This document shows positions 22,959-28,161 of a stretch of 64,000 nt of DNA, one piece after another (position 1 is the stretch's first letter; each line of letters begins with the position of its first letter). A model generated the notes under the pieces. That model was not told the origin of the DNA and searched no databases. It saw only the letters and a list, made by a program, of their open reading frames with translations. Where the stretch lies: the IMG/VR virus record IMGVR_UViG_3300042938_002732, positions 1-64,000 of that record, one strand, 5' to 3'. This DNA comes from a virus. The position numbers and the translations under genes are program-made.

Positions 22959-23915
22959 ATGGCATACAATACTTCAGACTCCGTTCCACGGCAGGACATC
23001 TCCACTCTACTCATGGAAGCCGTCCACCAGGAAAAACACTTCGTCGCCTCCAGCCTCCTGCCCGTTTACGGCAGCGAGCGTGAGGTCGGACGCTATCCGA
23101 AATTCCGCATCGGCAAGGGCGAACTCCTCAAGAAAGAGAGCCAAAAGCGCGGAGCCACCGGCACCTACAACGAATCAGAAGAGCAATTCGAGTGGGACTC
23201 CTACCAGACCGCTGAATACGGGCACGAAAAACGCGTGGACGATGTCGTTCGCAAACAAATGCGCGACTTTTTCGACTCCGATATGGTGACTGCGAAGTTC
23301 TGCATGAATAAACTCATGCTCGACTACGAAGTGGAAGCCGCCACTGCGATCATGGATCCTTCCGTGTTCACGGCATCGGCCGCTGGCACAGCCTACACCG
23401 AAGCGAATCTCGCGACGATGGACTTCCCCGCCGACCTGAATGCAACGATCGAAGCGCTCACGCTCAACGGCGAAGAACCCAACACAATGGTGCTCAGCCT
23501 CTCGGTCTACAATCGCCTGAAGCGCTCCAAGCTGCTCCAGACCTACCTCTACGGCCACCTGAACACAACCCAGGGCGGATCGAACATTACTCCCACCCTC
23601 GTCGCCGAGGCCTTTGGCATCCCGAATATCGTGATCGCCAAGAAGTCCTACGACAGCGGCATCAAGGGCAAGACCAGTGTCGTTCCCGTGTGGGGCAACA
23701 GCTACATCTGGCTTGGCGAAGTGCAAGGGGGCGACTTCATGAACGGCGGCTGCGGCCGCACGATCATCTGGGATGCTGACTCCGAAGGCGGACTCTTCAC
23801 CACCGATCAATACCGCGACGAACCTCGCCGTGGAGACAAGATCCGCGTGCGCAGCAATCGCGTCATCAAGATCGTGAACCCGAACTCTGGCCGACTCATC
23901 GGAACCGGACTCTAA
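22959..23915 (+). CDS. major capsid protein
   Basis: 318 aa; position; EPNTMVLS..VYNRLK, VAEAFGIPNIVI, VWG and GRT patterns as in lambda gpE-like capsids. Confidence 0.85.
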   Translation: MAYNTSDSVPRQDISTLLMEAVHQEKHFVASSLLPVYGSEREVGRYPKFRIGKGELLKKESQKRGATGTYNESEEQFEWDSYQTAEYGHEKRVDDVVRKQMRDFFDSDMVTAKFCMNKLMLDYEVEAATAIMDPSVFTASAAGTAYTEANLATMDFPADLNATIEALTLNGEEPNTMVLSLSVYNRLKRSKLLQTYLYGHLNTTQGGSNITPTLVAEAFGIPNIVIAKKSYDSGIKGKTSVVPVWGNSYIWLGEVQGGDFMNGGCGRTIIWDADSEGGLFTTDQYRDEPRRGDKIRVRSNRVIKIVNPNSGRLIGTGL

Positions 23916-24891: not shown

Positions 24892-24962
24892 TGCAGGATG
24901 GAGAAACGGTATCTCACGAGGCCCATAACCTTGCGTTCCGGGTTCGATTCCCGGTCCTGCTA
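24892..24962 (+). tRNA. tRNA-Met(CAT), initiator-like
   Basis: Cloverleaf: acceptor TGCAGGA/TCCTGCT with 1:72 mismatch, D stem GAGA/TCTC, anticodon stem CGAGG/CCTTG with loop CCCATAA, T arm CCGGG-TTCGATT-CCCGG; no encoded CCA. Confidence 0.85.
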
Positions 24963-24986
24963 ATTTTCCACACCACCACAACCGCT

Positions 24987-25018
24987 GGCAGACCGGCTTA
25001 AAGTCTGCCTCTTTTTTT
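24987..25018 (+). terminator. possible terminator after the tRNA
   Basis: GGCAGAC...GTCTGCC stem followed by T7. Confidence 0.55.
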
Positions 25019-26965
25019 ATGAAAAAACTGCACATTCCTTTGAAGGGTCATCGTTGGCATGGGAGCTCTGATGAGTCTTTGAGATATATTATGAAAGATG
25101 CGGATGAGGCTCGCCAGGCTGTAAGATCGCATGGGACTCTCCAAGGAGCCCAGGCCGCCCTCAAGTATGAGGATCAAATCAATGATGCCTCCACAATTCT
25201 TGGCTGGCGCCGACGGAATCCAAGTTGGCAGAAGCCAGTAAACCTTTCCGCCAACCTCAAGCCCGCCTTGCGCGAGCTGGCGGCCAGTAGTGAACAAATA
25301 AGCCCTACTGAAGCACGCAAGAGAATGCTCAGATACAACCTGCAAAAGTCGATTGATAAAAGCGGCGATGCCATGACGACGCCTGGCCTGTTGCTTGGAG
25401 GTATCACTGGAGCTGGTATCGCAGCTCGCCGAGGAAATGTTCGCGGCGCTCTTGCTGGTGCCGCCATCGGCGCTCCTCTCGGTATGGTGGGATTGCGTAT
25501 GACGGGGCGCTTGGAGGAAAAGCGTCGGTTAGCCGGGATGCTGCAGCCAACGGAAAAGAAGCTCTCTGCTTTTCATGGGAAGCTTCGCGAATTTGCAGGC
25601 GGGTATATGAACACTTCGCAGGGGGTCGTGAAGGAGGAGAGCGTGGGCGGTCACTTGAGGCGTCATGCAGGGGCTTATGTCGGAACGGCGCTGGCCCCTG
25701 TGCTGGGAACTGGAATCGGCGCGCTGATCGATGCCGCGCGCAAAAGGTCGAACTTGATCAAGACTTCCGATGAAAGCGTGGTGTCGGCAAGGACTGCAGC
25801 GGCGCTGGGTGGCCGTGAACGGCTCATGTCCGCCAACCTCAAGCCCGCCTTGCGCGAGCTGGCTTTGGTAAGGGATGCCAATGGGCAGCTTGTCGAAGAT
25901 GGGAATAATGGAGGCAGCGGGTTTAAGACGGCTGCTAAGGTCGGGCTTGGCGCTGCTGGAGTTGCTGGCGGGGCTGTGCTTGGAACGAGATATTATCACG
26001 CAAACAAGGCCGTTCAGGAAGCGGGCGGCTGGAGAAAAAATTGGTCTGATCTTTCAAAAATGAGTCAAGCTGGTGACGCCCAGGGGATGATGGATTGGTC
26101 TAAAAACATAAGCGCCACCGCTCAAAACAGTGCTCGGCAGGGATGGATGGGGAAGCTGGGCAAGGTCGGAAATGTCTTAACAAAATTCTCAGCCAACCTC
26201 AAGCCTGCCTTGCGCGAGCTTGCTGCTCGCAGTGGGCGGATCTTGGAGTTTGGCGATGGCGAGGCCAATGAAGCGGTGATTGCGGCTTTGAAGGCTGTGG
26301 CGAGTGCGGATGAGTCGCCAGCGCAGCGGTCGATGCTGCTCAAGCAGGGGCTCATCGAGATGGTGAAGGGCCAAGTGGTCATCACCGAGCGCGGCTACGA
26401 GATGATGCAGAAGGCAGGCGTGCCGCCGAAACTGACTCCCGAGGAACGCCGCGAGGAAATCGCGGAGTCAAGCGGGGCGAAGCGGGAGTTTGCGCGGGGG
26501 GATTATCTCTTGAAAGCAAGGAAGTGGGCATCAAATGAAGCGCTTATGGGGAGGATGCCTTTGACGCGAGGGAGTTCTCTCAACCCTTTTGCGCCGATGC
26601 CTCCAGCGCCAATTCGTAAGGGGGGCACGCAAAAGAGGGCTGCTGCTTGGCTGCGCAGCGTGAAGAAGGAGCTTTCGAGGATTGAGTTTGCGCGGGGGGA
26701 TTATGCGATTCCGGCGCTGAAGAAGATTTATCGGAATGGAGGTCCCTTGCGAGGGCTGAAAAGCGGGCGTGTCGGCGTAGAGTCATCTCTGCGCGGGGAC
26801 CCGGTTGGCATTCTAAAAGATCGCGCCGATGCCAAATTCGCCTCGCGCATTGACCCGGCAGGTGAACTTCACGGTGCGGGTCATCACATGACAGTAAACC
26901 GCAAGTGGGCCGCAGCAACTATTCGGGATGTTCGTAGCTTGCGTCCTGAATGGCTGCGAGCGTAA
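25019..26965 (+). CDS. multi-module cargo polyprotein
   Basis: SANLKPALRELA at 25244, 25826 and 26186; LSAFHGKLREFA at 25562; EFARGDY at ~26480 and ~26672. Confidence 0.8.
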   Translation: MKKLHIPLKGHRWHGSSDESLRYIMKDADEARQAVRSHGTLQGAQAALKYEDQINDASTILGWRRRNPSWQKPVNLSANLKPALRELAASSEQISPTEARKRMLRYNLQKSIDKSGDAMTTPGLLLGGITGAGIAARRGNVRGALAGAAIGAPLGMVGLRMTGRLEEKRRLAGMLQPTEKKLSAFHGKLREFAGGYMNTSQGVVKEESVGGHLRRHAGAYVGTALAPVLGTGIGALIDAARKRSNLIKTSDESVVSARTAAALGGRERLMSANLKPALRELALVRDANGQLVEDGNNGGSGFKTAAKVGLGAAGVAGGAVLGTRYYHANKAVQEAGGWRKNWSDLSKMSQAGDAQGMMDWSKNISATAQNSARQGWMGKLGKVGNVLTKFSANLKPALRELAARSGRILEFGDGEANEAVIAALKAVASADESPAQRSMLLKQGLIEMVKGQVVITERGYEMMQKAGVPPKLTPEERREEIAESSGAKREFARGDYLLKARKWASNEALMGRMPLTRGSSLNPFAPMPPAPIRKGGTQKRAAAWLRSVKKELSRIEFARGDYAIPALKKIYRNGGPLRGLKSGRVGVESSLRGDPVGILKDRADAKFASRIDPAGELHGAGHHMTVNRKWAAATIRDVRSLRPEWLRA

Positions 26966-26969
26966 TTCA

Positions 26970-27100
26970 TCCGGCGGGGCAGCGAGGGCACTGCGCCACT
27001 CAGTCGTAGCCTGGGGCGGGTCGATGTTCGGTCGGCCCTGACTTGCTGAAAAAGTGCAAGGAAGCGCATCGGGCAGGTGAGCGACCTGGCCCCCGTCGGA
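26970..27100 (+). ncRNA. candidate multibranched structured RNA 1
   Basis: Closing stem TCCGGCGGGG/CCCCGTCGGA encloses several hairpins (GCAG/CTGC, GGGC/GCCC, CTTGC/GCAAG, CAGGT/ACCTG); intergenic. Confidence 0.5.
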
Positions 27101-27125
27101 CCTTTTGTTGACCTGTTGGCTTGAT

Positions 27126-27260
27126 GTGAGGCGAAGCCTGGAGTCAGGCGGCGAGCGGGGAGCCTTGAAACCCGTATCCTAAAAAGGAATCACCACCCAA
27201 GCGGCAACACACGGGGCCGCTACTGAAACCGTGATCCGGAGTCACGCCCGGACGCCTCAC
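27126..27260 (+). ncRNA. candidate multibranched structured RNA 2
   Basis: Closing stem GTGAGGCG/CGCCTCAC with five internal hairpins; GTTGAC box upstream and T7 tract immediately downstream. Confidence 0.6.
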
Positions 27261-27331
27261 TTTTTTTGTCGGAAAAACGCATACATTTTCCCGACAAAAC
27301 TCCTGCTCGTTGACCTGTCGCGGCGGGGCGT

Positions 27332-27772
27332 ATGGCAAATGTAAACAAGGTGATATTGATCGGGAATGTGACGCGGGATGTGGAGGTAAAGTCCACGCCG
27401 AAGGGAACGGCTGTGGCAGGCATCACGCTGGCGGTGAATCGCAGCTACAAGACGGACTCGGGCGAGAAGCGCGAGGAGACGACTTTTGTGGATGTGGAGT
27501 TGTGGGGGCGTGTCGCGGAGATCGCAGGCGAGTATGTGAAGAAGGGGAATCCGCTCTACGTCGAGGGTCGGCTCAAGCAGGATTCCTGGGAGGACAAGGA
27601 ATCGGGCCAGAAACGCACGAAGCTGAAGGTGGTGGCGGAAAACATCCAGCTTCTGGGTTCGCGCCAGGGCGCGGCGAAGGCCACTCCTCCACCCCTGGAG
27701 GACAAGGTGCCTTCCGTGATGCCGCCCGCAGAGACGGAGAGGGAATTCCCGCCTGATGACATCCCGTTCTGA
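27332..27772 (+). CDS. ssb: single-stranded DNA-binding protein
   Basis: NKVILIGNVTRD, YVEGRL, C-terminal DDIPF. Confidence 0.97.
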   Translation: MANVNKVILIGNVTRDVEVKSTPKGTAVAGITLAVNRSYKTDSGEKREETTFVDVELWGRVAEIAGEYVKKGNPLYVEGRLKQDSWEDKESGQKRTKLKVVAENIQLLGSRQGAAKATPPPLEDKVPSVMPPAETEREFPPDDIPF

Positions 27773-27834
27773 GTCAGTTGACCTGAGCGGAGGGGCATTA
27801 TGGAAAATGTTTTTTTACTGTCGGGTGAATAGCC

Positions 27835-28161
27835 ATGGCCTTCGACGATTCATTCGCGCTGTCTGATGCGGTGGCTTTTGTGGAGATGGGTGCGCCGGTG
27901 GCGATCAATGGCACGCAGATCATGGCGATCCGGCAGCCGAACGAGATCACCAGCACGGCGGCGGACGGCGGTTTCGCCCGCGACGACTCGGCGAAGTTTG
28001 AGATATCGCTCTCGGATTTTACGCAGTTTGCCGTGAAGGTGGGCGCGAAGGTCGTGCAGGGCACGGAGAGTTGGCGCGTCGGCGCGGTGCGGCGGCGTGG
28101 CGGCACGGTGGATCTTGTGTGTATGAGCACGAGCGGCCAGTCGGGCCGTGGGGAATTTTAA
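27835..28161 (+). CDS. probable head-tail joining protein (gpFII-like)
   Basis: 108-aa beta-rich protein at the start of the neck/tail module. Confidence 0.5.
   Translation: MAFDDSFALSDAVAFVEMGAPVAINGTQIMAIRQPNEITSTAADGGFARDDSAKFEISLSDFTQFAVKVGAKVVQGTESWRVGAVRRRGGTVDLVCMSTSGQSGRGEF

What the first reader, a model, noticed from the sequence alone, without database searches (positions are those of the whole stretch)
26970..27267. Two tandem ~130-nt multibranched RNA structures between the last cargo gene and ssb
Seen: RNA1 (26970-27100) is closed by TCCGGCGGGG/CCCCGTCGGA and contains four to five hairpins. RNA2 (27126-27260) is closed by GTGAGGCG/CGCCTCAC and contains five hairpins (GCCTG/CAGGC, CGGG/CCCG, TCCT/AGGA, GCGGC/GCCGC, TCCGG/CCGGA). 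RNA2 has its own GTTGAC box and ends in T7. Each has a possible pseudoknot: loop CGATG with linker CATCG in RNA1, and loop CACGG with linker CCGTG in RNA2. The two have similar size and architecture without obvious sequence identity, and neither has a tRNA T-loop. Inference: a possibly undescribed phage ncRNA class (structural, decoy or ribozyme-like).
Basis: partly seen in the sequence, partly recalled or inferred. Interest (0 to 1): 0.75.

Follow-up and report, generated by a model that had tools for sequence, protein, structure and literature searches.

The report
Two phage small-RNA genes; one founds a family
Upstream of the ssb gene of an uncultured 95-kb phage lie two structured small-RNA modules: the first belongs to a previously unannotated, pseudoknotted RNA family found in about 40 related viral contigs with strong covariation support, and the second is a lineage-specific candidate whose fold cannot yet be verified.

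Summary
Both segments fold better than shuffled controls on the + strand only (z -2.0 and -2.8, against -0.7 and -1.2 on the - strand). Both have sharp borders at their closing stems and stay 93-98% identical in four related contigs whose flanks are unrelated.

RNA1 (26970-27100) belongs to a large family: 42 full copies (35 distinct) in IMG/VR contigs, plus one on a Verrucomicrobia MAG contig. It has no Rfam 15 match. On 34 distinct sequences, 96% of cells pair, 24 of 40 pairs show changes on both sides, and 0 of 500 shuffles reach this. It has a terminal P1/P1a helix, a P2 hairpin whose loop forms a covarying pseudoknot, and a long-range P5 helix enclosing a variable P3 and P4. About 55 nucleotides are invariant. 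Promoter-like boxes end just before P1 in some members, and a U-rich tail or terminator follows. I read this as a stand-alone small-RNA gene in the head and packaging module. Its function is unknown.

RNA2 (27126-27260) exists in only five near-identical copies. It has its own GTTGAC start box, but no covariation test is possible. RNA1 and RNA2 are not homologous.

The parts
26970..27100 (+). RNA1: member of a new pseudoknotted structured-RNA family (131 nt here, 131-159 nt in relatives)
   Evidence: CM hits in 45 viral loci and one Verrucomicrobia MAG contig. Covariation on A7: 96.2% canonical cells, 24 of 40 pairs with changes on both sides, 0 of 500 shuffles as good. No Rfam hit.
26970..26979 (+). 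P1 5' strand; pairs with 27091-27100
   Evidence: The 10-bp terminal helix has 7 pairs with compensatory changes, for example UA/GC/CG at cols 1-169 and AU/GC/GU at cols 9-161.
26982..26987 (+). P1a 5' strand GCGAGG; pairs with CCUGGC at 27085-27090, with an invariant G.G mismatch
   Evidence: Cols 13-159 show UA:24, GC:9, UG:1. Cols 14-158 show CG:28, UA:3, UG:3.
26988..26996 (+). P2 hairpin (GC/GC stem); loop nucleotides 26990-26992 (ACU) form a pseudoknot with 27076-27078 (GGU)
   Evidence: The three pseudoknot pairs (cols 21-147, 22-146, 23-145) all covary (GC/AU/GU; GC/CG/AU; UA/CG/UG) and are canonical in 33-34 of 34 sequences.
27009..27014 (+). P5 5' strand GCCUGG; pairs with UCGGGC at 27069-27074; this long-range helix encloses P3 and P4
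   Evidence: 4 of 6 pairs show changes on both sides (for example cols 45-140: UA:19, UG:8, GC:5, CG:2). 98% of cells pair.
27018..27038 (+). P3 hairpin with an invariant GGG/CCC base and a variable-length distal part (21 nt here, up to about 45 nt in relatives)
   Evidence: Alignment A7. In relatives the distal part is replaced by unrelated hairpins that often end in GAAA- or GUAU-type loops.
27042..27060 (+). P4 hairpin CUUGC/GCAAG with an A-rich loop; long forms carry a GNRA- or UUCG-capped insert
   Evidence: 3 of 5 pairs covary (cols 103-125: AU:18, GC:10, CG:3, UA:3). 4 of 5 pairs of the P4a insert covary.
27101..27106 (+). CC plus U-rich tail after P1 (CCUUUU): probable 3' end, with P1 acting as the terminator stem
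   Evidence: CC follows P1 in 25 of 36 copies. A U-rich tract or a separate canonical terminator hairpin follows in most. The terminator scan flags 27086-27099 plus ACCTTTTGTT.
27107..27112 (+). GTTGAC start box 13-14 nt before the RNA2 closing stem
   Evidence: Conserved in all four relatives. The same box sits 15-18 nt before the ATG of at least 18 long ORFs of the window, and 26 of 27 copies are on the + strand.
27126..27260 (+). RNA2: lineage-specific candidate structured small RNA (135 nt)
   Evidence: Five near-identical copies with sharp borders. z -2.82 on the + strand against -1.24 on the - strand. Substitutions fall in loops or keep pairs. No homologue was found beyond these copies.
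27261..27299 (+). T7 run, then hairpin UUUUGUCGG...CCGACAAAA; specific to the window and replaced by other sequence in relatives
   Evidence: Fold z -5.06. Alignment A1 shows the replacement.
27309..27772 (+). GTTGAC box (27309-27314) and the ssb gene (27332-27772), the downstream neighbour
   Evidence: Pfam SSB E 8e-37 and phrog_44. Spacer of 17 nt from box to ATG.

Best explanation
The segment holds two independent small-RNA genes on the + strand of an uncultured 95-kb phage with direct terminal repeats. The host is probably a member of Verrucomicrobiota.

RNA1 is one copy of a conserved RNA family. Its 5' and 3' ends pair in a long terminal helix (P1/P1a). The interior forms two stacked three-way junctions (P1a-P2-P5 and P5-P3-P4), locked by a pseudoknot between the P2 loop and the strand joining P5 to P1a. 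About 55 junction and loop nucleotides are invariant, whereas P3 and P4 are freely resized and capped by stable tetraloops. This part is shown.

The rest is inferred. The RNA is made as a discrete molecule of about 130-160 nt. Its 5' end is set by a start signal that ends 15 nt (TTGAC) or 6 nt (extended -10 TGCTATAAT) before P1, or by processing where it directly follows a stop codon, as in this window. Its 3' end is set by P1 plus a U tract, sometimes backed by a separate terminator. It is expressed with the head and packaging genes and acts in trans through its invariant core. That core most likely binds a conserved phage or host protein, as an RNP component or a decoy. Catalysis or ligand binding are less likely alternatives.

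RNA2 is a second, unrelated module with its own GTTGAC start box and a U-rich end. It is probably also a small stable RNA, confined to this phage's close relatives. The slot upstream of ssb is a small-RNA island where such modules are gained, lost and shuffled.
For: Conservation. The RNA cores stay 93-98% identical with sharp borders while the flanks are unrelated. RNA1 and RNA2 occur together, separated by about 580 nt, or singly. RNA1 keeps about 75% nucleotide identity between phages whose portal, protease and capsid proteins are only 31-45% identical.

Structure. Covariation is strong in P1, P1a, P5, P4, P4a and the pseudoknot: 96% canonical cells, 24 of 40 pairs with changes on both sides, 0 of 500 shuffles as good, and slid controls at or below 50% paired. 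G-U/A-U/G-C exchanges and the strand asymmetry of folding z-scores point to RNA on the + strand. Family lengths of 131-159 nt differ by non-multiples of 3, so the segment is not coding.

Transcription signals. Promoter-like boxes sit at a fixed distance before P1: TTGAC in L250, L251, L262, L273, L282 and L288, and TGCTATAAT or TGCTATACT in L277 and L258. A U tail or a canonical terminator lies after P1. The same GTTGAC box precedes RNA2 and at least 18 genes of the window.

Distribution and context. The family is phage-specific: it was found in 1 of 151 genomes of the MAG's order and in 0 of 120 bacterial loci that matched the 3' pattern. The genomic context is always the head and packaging module.
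Against: There are no expression data, so the RNA ends are inferred from sequence only.

In the window and in the largest subgroup (L120 type), RNA1 starts 4-20 nt after a stop codon with no convincing promoter. There it may simply be the 3' end of the upstream mRNA.

No partner protein, ligand or target was identified. The same layout (promoter, RNA, terminator, then genes) would also fit a cis-acting antiterminator.

For RNA2 there are no compensatory changes at all: five copies with about 10 variable columns, one of which breaks a predicted pair. Its fold z-score is modest.

Whether GTTGAC is a promoter, a processing site or something else is unresolved. G-rich, Shine-Dalgarno-like stretches lie between it and many ATGs.
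Confidence: 0.5

Rival explanations
1. RNA1 is a cis-acting transcript element rather than a trans-acting RNA. It could be a put-like RNA that makes the transcribing polymerase resistant to the terminators directly behind it, so that the long unidirectional late operon is read through. Alternatively it could be a structured 3' end that terminates and stabilises the upstream mRNA.
For: RNA1 always lies on the coding strand, inside the structural operon, immediately before a U tract or a strong terminator hairpin and then further late genes. In many members it follows a stop codon with no promoter of its own. All genes of the window are on one strand.
Against: A GTTGAC start box precedes nearly every late gene junction, so long-range readthrough may not be needed. 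A simple hairpin is enough for 3' protection, whereas this RNA keeps about 55 invariant nucleotides, two junctions and a pseudoknot. HK022 put RNAs are two simple stem-loops of about 70 nt, and no similarity to them was seen. That comparison rests on my own knowledge, not a test.
Confidence: 0.2
2. RNA1 is a riboswitch aptamer or a self-cleaving ribozyme of a new class. As a riboswitch, a ligand would stabilise P1, which with the U tract terminates transcription before the head genes. As a ribozyme, the core would cleave the polycistronic transcript.
For: The anatomy resembles that of aptamers and small ribozymes: a compact pseudoknotted multi-junction fold, invariant junction nucleotides, and expendable peripheral stems capped with tetraloops. 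P1 is followed directly by CC and a U tract, and then by the protease, scaffold and capsid genes in most members.
Against: There is no alternative pairing between the P1 3' strand and the downstream terminator. Where a separate terminator exists, it is a self-contained palindrome. The downstream gene carries its own start box after the terminator. The genomic position varies: after terminase, before the protease, or after capsid and cargo genes. No Rfam riboswitch or ribozyme model scores even at E<=10.
Confidence: 0.1
3. The elements act as DNA, not as RNA. They could be an origin, a single-strand initiation site next to ssb, a recombination site or a packaging site.
For: They lie next to ssb in this phage. 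The blocks are very highly conserved in sequence and have sharp borders.
Against: Helices tolerate G-U and exchange G-U, A-U and G-C, which would be A.C mismatches on the other strand. Only the + strand folds better than shuffles. In most family members RNA1 is nowhere near ssb; it lies before the protease gene. Peripheral stems are capped with GNRA or UUCG tetraloops, which is an RNA signature.
Confidence: 0.03
4. RNA2 is not a functional folded RNA. It would be a recently spread piece of intergenic or mobile sequence whose conservation reflects recent common descent or transfer, with a chance-level fold.
For: Only five copies exist, all at least 93% identical, so conservation alone proves little. 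No compensatory change is seen, and one substitution breaks a predicted pair. The region in relatives is littered with small repeat elements that insert in either orientation.
Against: The borders of identity coincide with the closing stem. The flanks diverge completely while the 135 nt carry about 10 variable columns, in contigs whose SSB proteins are only 81-83% identical. The GTTGAC start box is conserved before it. Folding z is -2.82 on the + strand only. Most substitutions lie in predicted loops or convert G-C to G-U and G-U to G-C.
Confidence: 0.25

Closest known systems
Unnamed candidate structured RNAs (csRNAs) predicted from IMG/VR by comparative genomics (PMC10690425, 8,495 DNA-virus candidates)
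   Same: Same kind of object and same data source: intergenic, covarying, phage-encoded structures of unknown function, absent from Rfam.
   Different: That paper names no motif with this anatomy in its text, and its supplementary tables are not held here. Overlap can therefore be neither shown nor excluded. The fold, the pseudoknot, the family borders and the genomic context given here are worked out independently.
phi29 packaging RNA (pRNA, Rfam RF00044)
   Same: A phage-encoded stand-alone RNA of about 120-170 nt. Its 5' and 3' ends pair in a bulged terminal helix, and its core is a three-way junction bearing two hairpins. It is associated with head assembly and packaging. The pRNA anatomy is from my own knowledge.
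   Different: No score against the Rfam model. RNA1 also has a second junction and a pseudoknot. These phages are large and tailed, with a TerL, portal and HK97-type capsid module, not phi29-like.
HK022 put RNAs (cis-acting polymerase-modifying antiterminators)
   Same: A phage RNA element placed just downstream of a promoter and just upstream of terminators, on the strand of a long operon.
   Different: put RNAs are two simple stem-loops of about 70 nt (my own knowledge). RNA1 is a pseudoknotted double-junction RNA of 131-159 nt whose terminal helix plus U tract itself looks like a terminator. No sequence or model similarity could be tested, because put is not among the hits of any scan.
T4 small stable RNAs (species 1 and 2, RNA C and D) in the tRNA gene cluster
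   Same: Phage-encoded stable RNAs of about 120-140 nt and unknown function, lying in tandem near a phage tRNA gene. Here a tRNA-Met lies 2 kb upstream.
   Different: No sequence relation is known or was tested. This is a resemblance recalled from memory only.
Junction-plus-pseudoknot riboswitch aptamers (for example SAM-I, THF-I, cobalamin)
   Same: A P1 closing helix, multi-helix junctions, a pseudoknot between a hairpin loop and a junction strand, invariant junction nucleotides and variable peripheral stems. A few short words recall cobalamin and THF motifs (GCCACU, GACCUG, GAAGCG).
   Different: None of these Rfam models scores at E<=10 on three different family members. RNA1 has no expression platform and is followed by self-contained terminators.

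Membership tests
Any Rfam 15 family (4,227 models) | Score at or above the gathering threshold, or at least a suggestive E-value, against the family covariance model | tested here: not met
   In the whole window at gathering threshold, only tRNA-Met at 24892-24962 is found. Over 26800-27450 at E<=10 there are four chance-level hits, the best being BASRCI27 on the - strand at 20.9 bits against a cut-off of 59.8. Typical family members L279 and L277 at E<=10 give nothing relevant. Relatives' loci at E<=0.1 give only tRNA.
tRNA, tmRNA and tRNA-like elements | Cloverleaf with T-loop, or a tmRNA tRNA-like domain with tag reading frame | tested here: not met
   ARAGORN finds only tRNA-Met(CAU) at 24892-24962. 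The Rfam tRNA and tmRNA models do not hit RNA1 or RNA2. A CC dinucleotide after P1 in 25 of 36 copies is the only tRNA-like trait.
   The P3 and P4 loops across 34 sequences are GAAA, GCAA, UUCG, GUAU or A-rich loops with no 4-nt mutual complementarity.
phi29-type pRNA | 5'/3' terminal helix plus three-way-junction core | tested here: met
   P1/P1a plus the junctions P1a-P2-P5 and P5-P3-P4, supported by covariation. This is resemblance only.
Bacterial Y RNA (YrlA) with Ro60/Rsr | A co-encoded Ro60 (TROVE) protein and a tRNA-like module on a long terminal stem | tested here: not met
   There is no TROVE (PF05731) match in the phage genome, while the controls were positive. No YrlA or Y RNA model hit was found.
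New RNA1 family (defined here) | P1/P1a terminal helix; GAGGGC-N4-CGCCACUNAGUCGU block; P5 long-range helix; GGG/CCC-based P3; P4; GAAGCGCAU and GAGCGACCUGG blocks; pseudoknot between the P2 loop and J5/1a | tested here: met
   The window copy scores 121 bits (E 1e-21) against model R3, built from 34 sequences, and carries every block and helix.
Riboswitch (generic) | An aptamer followed by an expression platform whose alternative pairing overlaps the aptamer | tested here: not met
   Downstream terminators are self-contained palindromes with no complementarity to the P1 3' strand. The next gene has its own start box.

The most novel reading that the evidence does not exclude
RNA1 is the founding member of a new functional RNA class with a compact pseudoknotted double-junction fold. 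It would be kept by a whole lineage of uncultured Verrucomicrobia phages because it does something essential late in infection. Candidate roles are an RNA subunit of the head-assembly or DNA-packaging machinery (a second, unrelated 'pRNA'), a new self-cleaving ribozyme, or a polymerase-modifying antiterminator. The ssb-proximal slot would be a shuffling island of such RNA genes (RNA1, RNA2 and a third conserved element seen in relatives).
Probability: 0.25. Interest if true: 0.85.

Novelty: new variant of a known kind. Interest (0 to 1): 0.6.

Why it matters
Complex-folded RNAs that combine a pseudoknot, stacked junctions and dozens of invariant nucleotides have mostly turned out to be ribozymes, riboswitches or RNP cores. 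RNA1 is such a fold. It is conserved better than the capsid, portal and protease proteins of the phages that carry it, and it is embedded in the head and packaging module of a phage lineage with no cultured member.

This work provides a defined family with an alignment, a covariance model and exact borders. The family can be synthesised and probed directly for structure, self-cleavage and protein pull-down, and it can be looked for in lake metatranscriptomes.

The fixed spacing of the (G)TTGAC box before both protein starts and RNA 5' helices gives a handle on how these phages mark gene starts.

If RNA1 is only a stable by-product, the result is still a clean new entry for RNA family databases.

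Tried and rejected
1. Known families. Rfam at gathering threshold and at E<=10 on the window and on three relatives gave nothing. ARAGORN gave nothing.
2. Homology between RNA1 and RNA2. Models R1 and R2 do not cross-hit.
3. A host copy of RNA2. A 20-mer scan of 185,579 species genomes gave only 20-24-nt chance-like matches, mostly in Comamonadaceae.
4. A host copy of RNA1. The 3' pattern gave 120 chance hits and no CM match in the 100 of them that were scanned; a word search for the 5'-block motifs over all 120 found nothing coinciding with the 3'-pattern sites. The 5' pattern gave one true hit (a Verrucomicrobia MAG) and one chance hit. The CM found RNA1 in only that MAG among 151 genomes of its order.
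5. More RNA2 copies. The last viral scan, the only metagenome scan and CM searches of about 60 loci and 20 whole viral records found only the five known copies.
6. One viral scan was wasted on a pattern with a wrong spacer: N5 instead of N4.
8. Isolate phages. No DNA match was found, and the capsid protein is only about 22% identical to those of Arthrobacter phages.
9. Y RNA idea. There is no TROVE protein.
10. Resemblance to cobalamin, THF or SAM riboswitches was considered because of short shared words. It was rejected because no model scores.
11. The RNAalifold hairpin CGC-UCG/CGA-GCG was rejected in favour of P5, which covaries.
12. Literature. A full-text search for the core 14-mers found nothing relevant. 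The supplements of PMC10690425 are not held.

Full report
**Setting.** The window is the first 64 kb of a 95,362-bp IMG/VR virus record with direct terminal repeats. All long ORFs are on the + strand, with strong positive GC skew. Around the finding lie, in order:
- the major head protein (22959-23915, phrog_1005);
- a 302-aa ORF;
- tRNA-Met(CAU) (24892-24962);
- a 648-aa ORF with no family match (25019-26965);
- the two elements under study;
- ssb (27332-27772; Pfam SSB E 8e-37);
- a head-closure protein (27835-28161).

No isolate phage is close: there is no DNA match, and the capsid protein is about 22% identical to those of Arthrobacter phages. The nearest cellular SSBs are from Verrucomicrobiae and Terrimicrobiaceae. 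The only bacterial-genome copy of RNA1 sits on a Verrucomicrobia MAG contig. The host is therefore probably a member of Verrucomicrobiota.

**Checking the observation.** The sequence is as described.
- RNA1 (26970-27100) folds to -65.0 kcal/mol, z -2.04 against dinucleotide shuffles.
- RNA2 (27126-27267) folds to -57.4 kcal/mol, z -2.82.
- The reverse complements give z -0.66 and -1.24.

The folding signal is modest but strand-specific. The closing stems and the listed RNA2 hairpins appear in the MFE structures. Rfam (gathering threshold on the whole window, E<=10 on 26800-27450) and ARAGORN find nothing at these coordinates.

**Close relatives show two separable modules.** Four other viral contigs with SSB 81-83% identical carry the elements.
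- L009 has both, 27 nt apart.
- L039 has both, 78 nt apart.
- L008 has RNA1 and RNA2 about 580 nt apart, with another conserved element and a minus-strand ORF between them.
- L007 has RNA2 only.

Identity is 93-98% inside the modules and vanishes exactly at the closing stems. The few substitutions fall in predicted loops or turn G-C into G-U and the reverse. Covariance models of the two modules do not hit each other, so they are not homologous.

**RNA1 belongs to a large family.**
- Searching whole records of SSB-related phages with the RNA1 model found a diverged copy in a contig whose SSB is 69% identical. It lies 10 kb from ssb, at E 1e-5.
- The blocks shared with that copy gave patterns for collection scans.
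- The 3' block found 6 further members.
- The 5' block GAGGGC-N3-6-CGCCACNNAGTCGT found 46 viral stretches, of which 43 are true.
- cmsearch confirms 45 copies, of which 42 are full length and 35 distinct. Three contigs carry a remnant that lacks the 3' third.
- Lengths run from 131 to 159 nt in steps that are not multiples of three, so the element is not coding.
- These phages share portal, protease and capsid proteins with the window at only 31-45% identity, while the RNA core is about 75% identical. RNA1 is thus among the best-conserved features of the lineage.

**The comparative structure of RNA1.** On a MAFFT alignment of 34 distinct sequences (A7), a scan of all column pairs and explicit counts support this fold:
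- P1 (26970-79 with 27091-100).
- P1a (26982-87 with 27085-90, containing an invariant G.G).
- A short P2 hairpin (26988-96).
- A long-range P5 (27009-14 with 27069-74) that encloses P3 and P4.
- P3 (27018-38) has an invariant GGG/CCC base and a freely variable distal part.
- P4 (27042-60) carries a GNRA- or UUCG-capped insert in long forms.
- A three-pair pseudoknot between the P2 loop (26990-92) and 27076-78.

Overall, 96.2% of cells are canonical pairs and 24 of 40 pairs show changes on both sides. None of 500 shuffles reaches any of the five measures. Sliding the 3' partners by 1-3 columns drops pairing to 34-49%.

About 55 columns are invariant, mostly in the junctions: CGCCACU-AGUCGU, GGGGCGGG, CCCUUAC, GGAAGCGCAU and GAGCGACCUGG. 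Roughly half of the single-sequence MFE fold is wrong, including the CAGGU/ACCUG and GUGC/GCGC hairpins.

**Context and ends of RNA1.**
- RNA1 always lies on the coding strand in the head and packaging module. In the largest group (L279, L285) it sits between portal-associated genes and the head maturation protease. In L252 it follows the large terminase. In the window it follows the capsid and cargo genes.
- In six contigs a TTGAC box ends 15 nt before P1.
- In two contigs an extended -10 (TGCTATAAT or TGCTATACT) ends 6 nt before P1.
- In others, including the window, P1 starts a few nucleotides after a stop codon.
- CC follows P1 in 25 of 36 copies. After that comes a U-rich tract or a separate perfect terminator hairpin, and then the TTGAC box of the next gene.

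I read this as a discrete RNA whose terminal helix doubles as the terminator stem. It would be either self-transcribed or cut from the 3' end of the upstream message.

**The GTTGAC box.** 26 of the 27 GTTGAC copies in the window are on the + strand. For at least 18 long ORFs the ATG follows TTGAC after 15-18 nt, which agrees with an earlier first-stage note on the other half of the genome. The same box lies 13-14 nt before the RNA2 closing stem in all five contigs, and at a similar distance before P1 of several RNA1 genes. A signal that keeps a fixed distance from both protein starts and RNA 5' helices marks the start of a transcript or a processing product, not a translation signal. Whether it is a promoter (which would imply very short or absent leaders) or a cleavage site cannot be decided here.

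**RNA2.** Only five copies exist in all collections searched: two viral scans, the metagenome scan, a genome scan, and CM searches of about 60 loci and 20 whole records. In its favour are sharp borders, its own start box, a U-rich end, strand-specific folding, and substitutions that avoid or preserve pairs. There is no compensatory change, so the five-hairpin fold and the proposed pseudoknot remain unverified.

**What it is not.**
- It matches no Rfam family.
- It is not a tRNA or tmRNA.
- It is not a Y RNA system, since there is no TROVE protein.
- It is not a host housekeeping RNA: it was found in 1 of 151 genomes of the MAG's order.
- It is not a DNA-level site, given the G-U tolerance, the strand asymmetry and the RNA tetraloops.
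- A riboswitch is unlikely, because the terminators behind it are self-contained and the next gene has its own start box.

**Mechanism and rivals.**
- Best reading (0.5): stand-alone, trans-acting structured small RNAs expressed with the late genes, with the invariant core of RNA1 serving as a binding surface for a conserved protein.
- Cis-acting antiterminator or 3'-end element: 0.2.
- New riboswitch or ribozyme: 0.1.
- DNA element: 0.03.
- Separately, the chance that RNA2 is not a functional fold is about 0.25.

**Novelty.** The family is absent from Rfam 15, and its core 14-mers occur in no indexed paper. A 2023 survey predicted 8,495 unnamed candidate structured RNAs from IMG/VR (PMC10690425). 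Its tables are not available here, so prior listing as an anonymous candidate cannot be excluded. I rate the finding as a new, well-supported structured RNA family of unknown function (interest 0.6), with a 0.25 chance that it represents a functionally new RNA class.

Noticed in passing
window, 27 sites, e.g. 6898, 11462, 21202, 27309, 29377, 30204, 33826, 38579, 46762, 52750, 53233: GTTGAC occurs 26 times on the + strand and once on the - strand. At gene junctions it lies 15-18 nt before the ATG of at least 18 long ORFs, often with a G-rich stretch in between. The same box precedes RNA2 and several RNA1 genes in relatives. It is a gene-start signal (promoter giving very short leaders, or a processing site).
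   Followed up: partly
window 24892-24962, with terminator hairpin at about 24984-25018: The phage tRNA-Met(CAU) has a mismatched first acceptor pair (U1.U72 here, C1.U72 in L010), an initiator-like trait. It is conserved in relatives L007, L008, L010 and L011, and is followed by a GGCAGAC/GTCTGCC terminator.
   Followed up: no
L008 about 2236-2345; L007 about 2583-2700; L010 2838-2934; L011 2843-2945: A third conserved element (about 100 nt) lies upstream of ssb in relatives, with core G(G/U)(C/A)AAGCCGUGAGUGCC ... GCCGC..GCGGC ... AACCACGG(A/G)GGCGG. CCGUG and CACGG are complementary. It is absent from the window and has no Rfam hit. The slot before ssb looks like a small-RNA island.
   Followed up: partly
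L007 2541-2575, 2709-2724, 2944-2973; L008 2190-2225, 2900-2935; also after RNA1 in L250, L273, L276, L282, L288: A short repeat element (AGTTTTAAGTTTTAAGCATTAAGTTTTAAG joined to CCTCTGTG/CACGGAG-type repeats) occurs in both orientations at the borders of the RNA modules. It resembles a miniature mobile element or a recombination scar.
   Followed up: no
L252 10779-10945 and 11160-11215; L277 5900-5960: In L252 an extended -10 (TGCTATAAT) is followed by an extra segment of about 155 nt before RNA1, possibly another RNA module. After the RNA1 terminator come four iteron-like GGTTGATTTC repeats.
   Followed up: no
L257, L271, L283 (about 100-nt CM hits): These are natural deletion variants. RNA1 lacks its 3' third (P5 3' strand, pseudoknot partner, P1a and P1 3' strands), and the break is fused to a damaged start of the protease gene.
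   Followed up: no
window 27777-27832: A near-duplicate of the ssb start region (GTTGACCTG...GGGGC.TTATGG.AAATG) heads only a 10-codon mini-ORF just before the head-closure gene.
   Followed up: no
window 27264-27299: A strong hairpin UUUUGUCGG...CCGACAAAA (z -5.06) lies between RNA2 and ssb. It is specific to this phage; relatives carry other inserts there.
   Followed up: partly
window 26484-26505 and 26686-26707: The motif EFARGDY (gagtttgcgcggggggattat) is repeated inside the 648-aa ORF upstream of RNA1. The C-terminal part of this ORF is shared with the gene upstream of the RNA modules in L007, L039 and L010.
   Followed up: no
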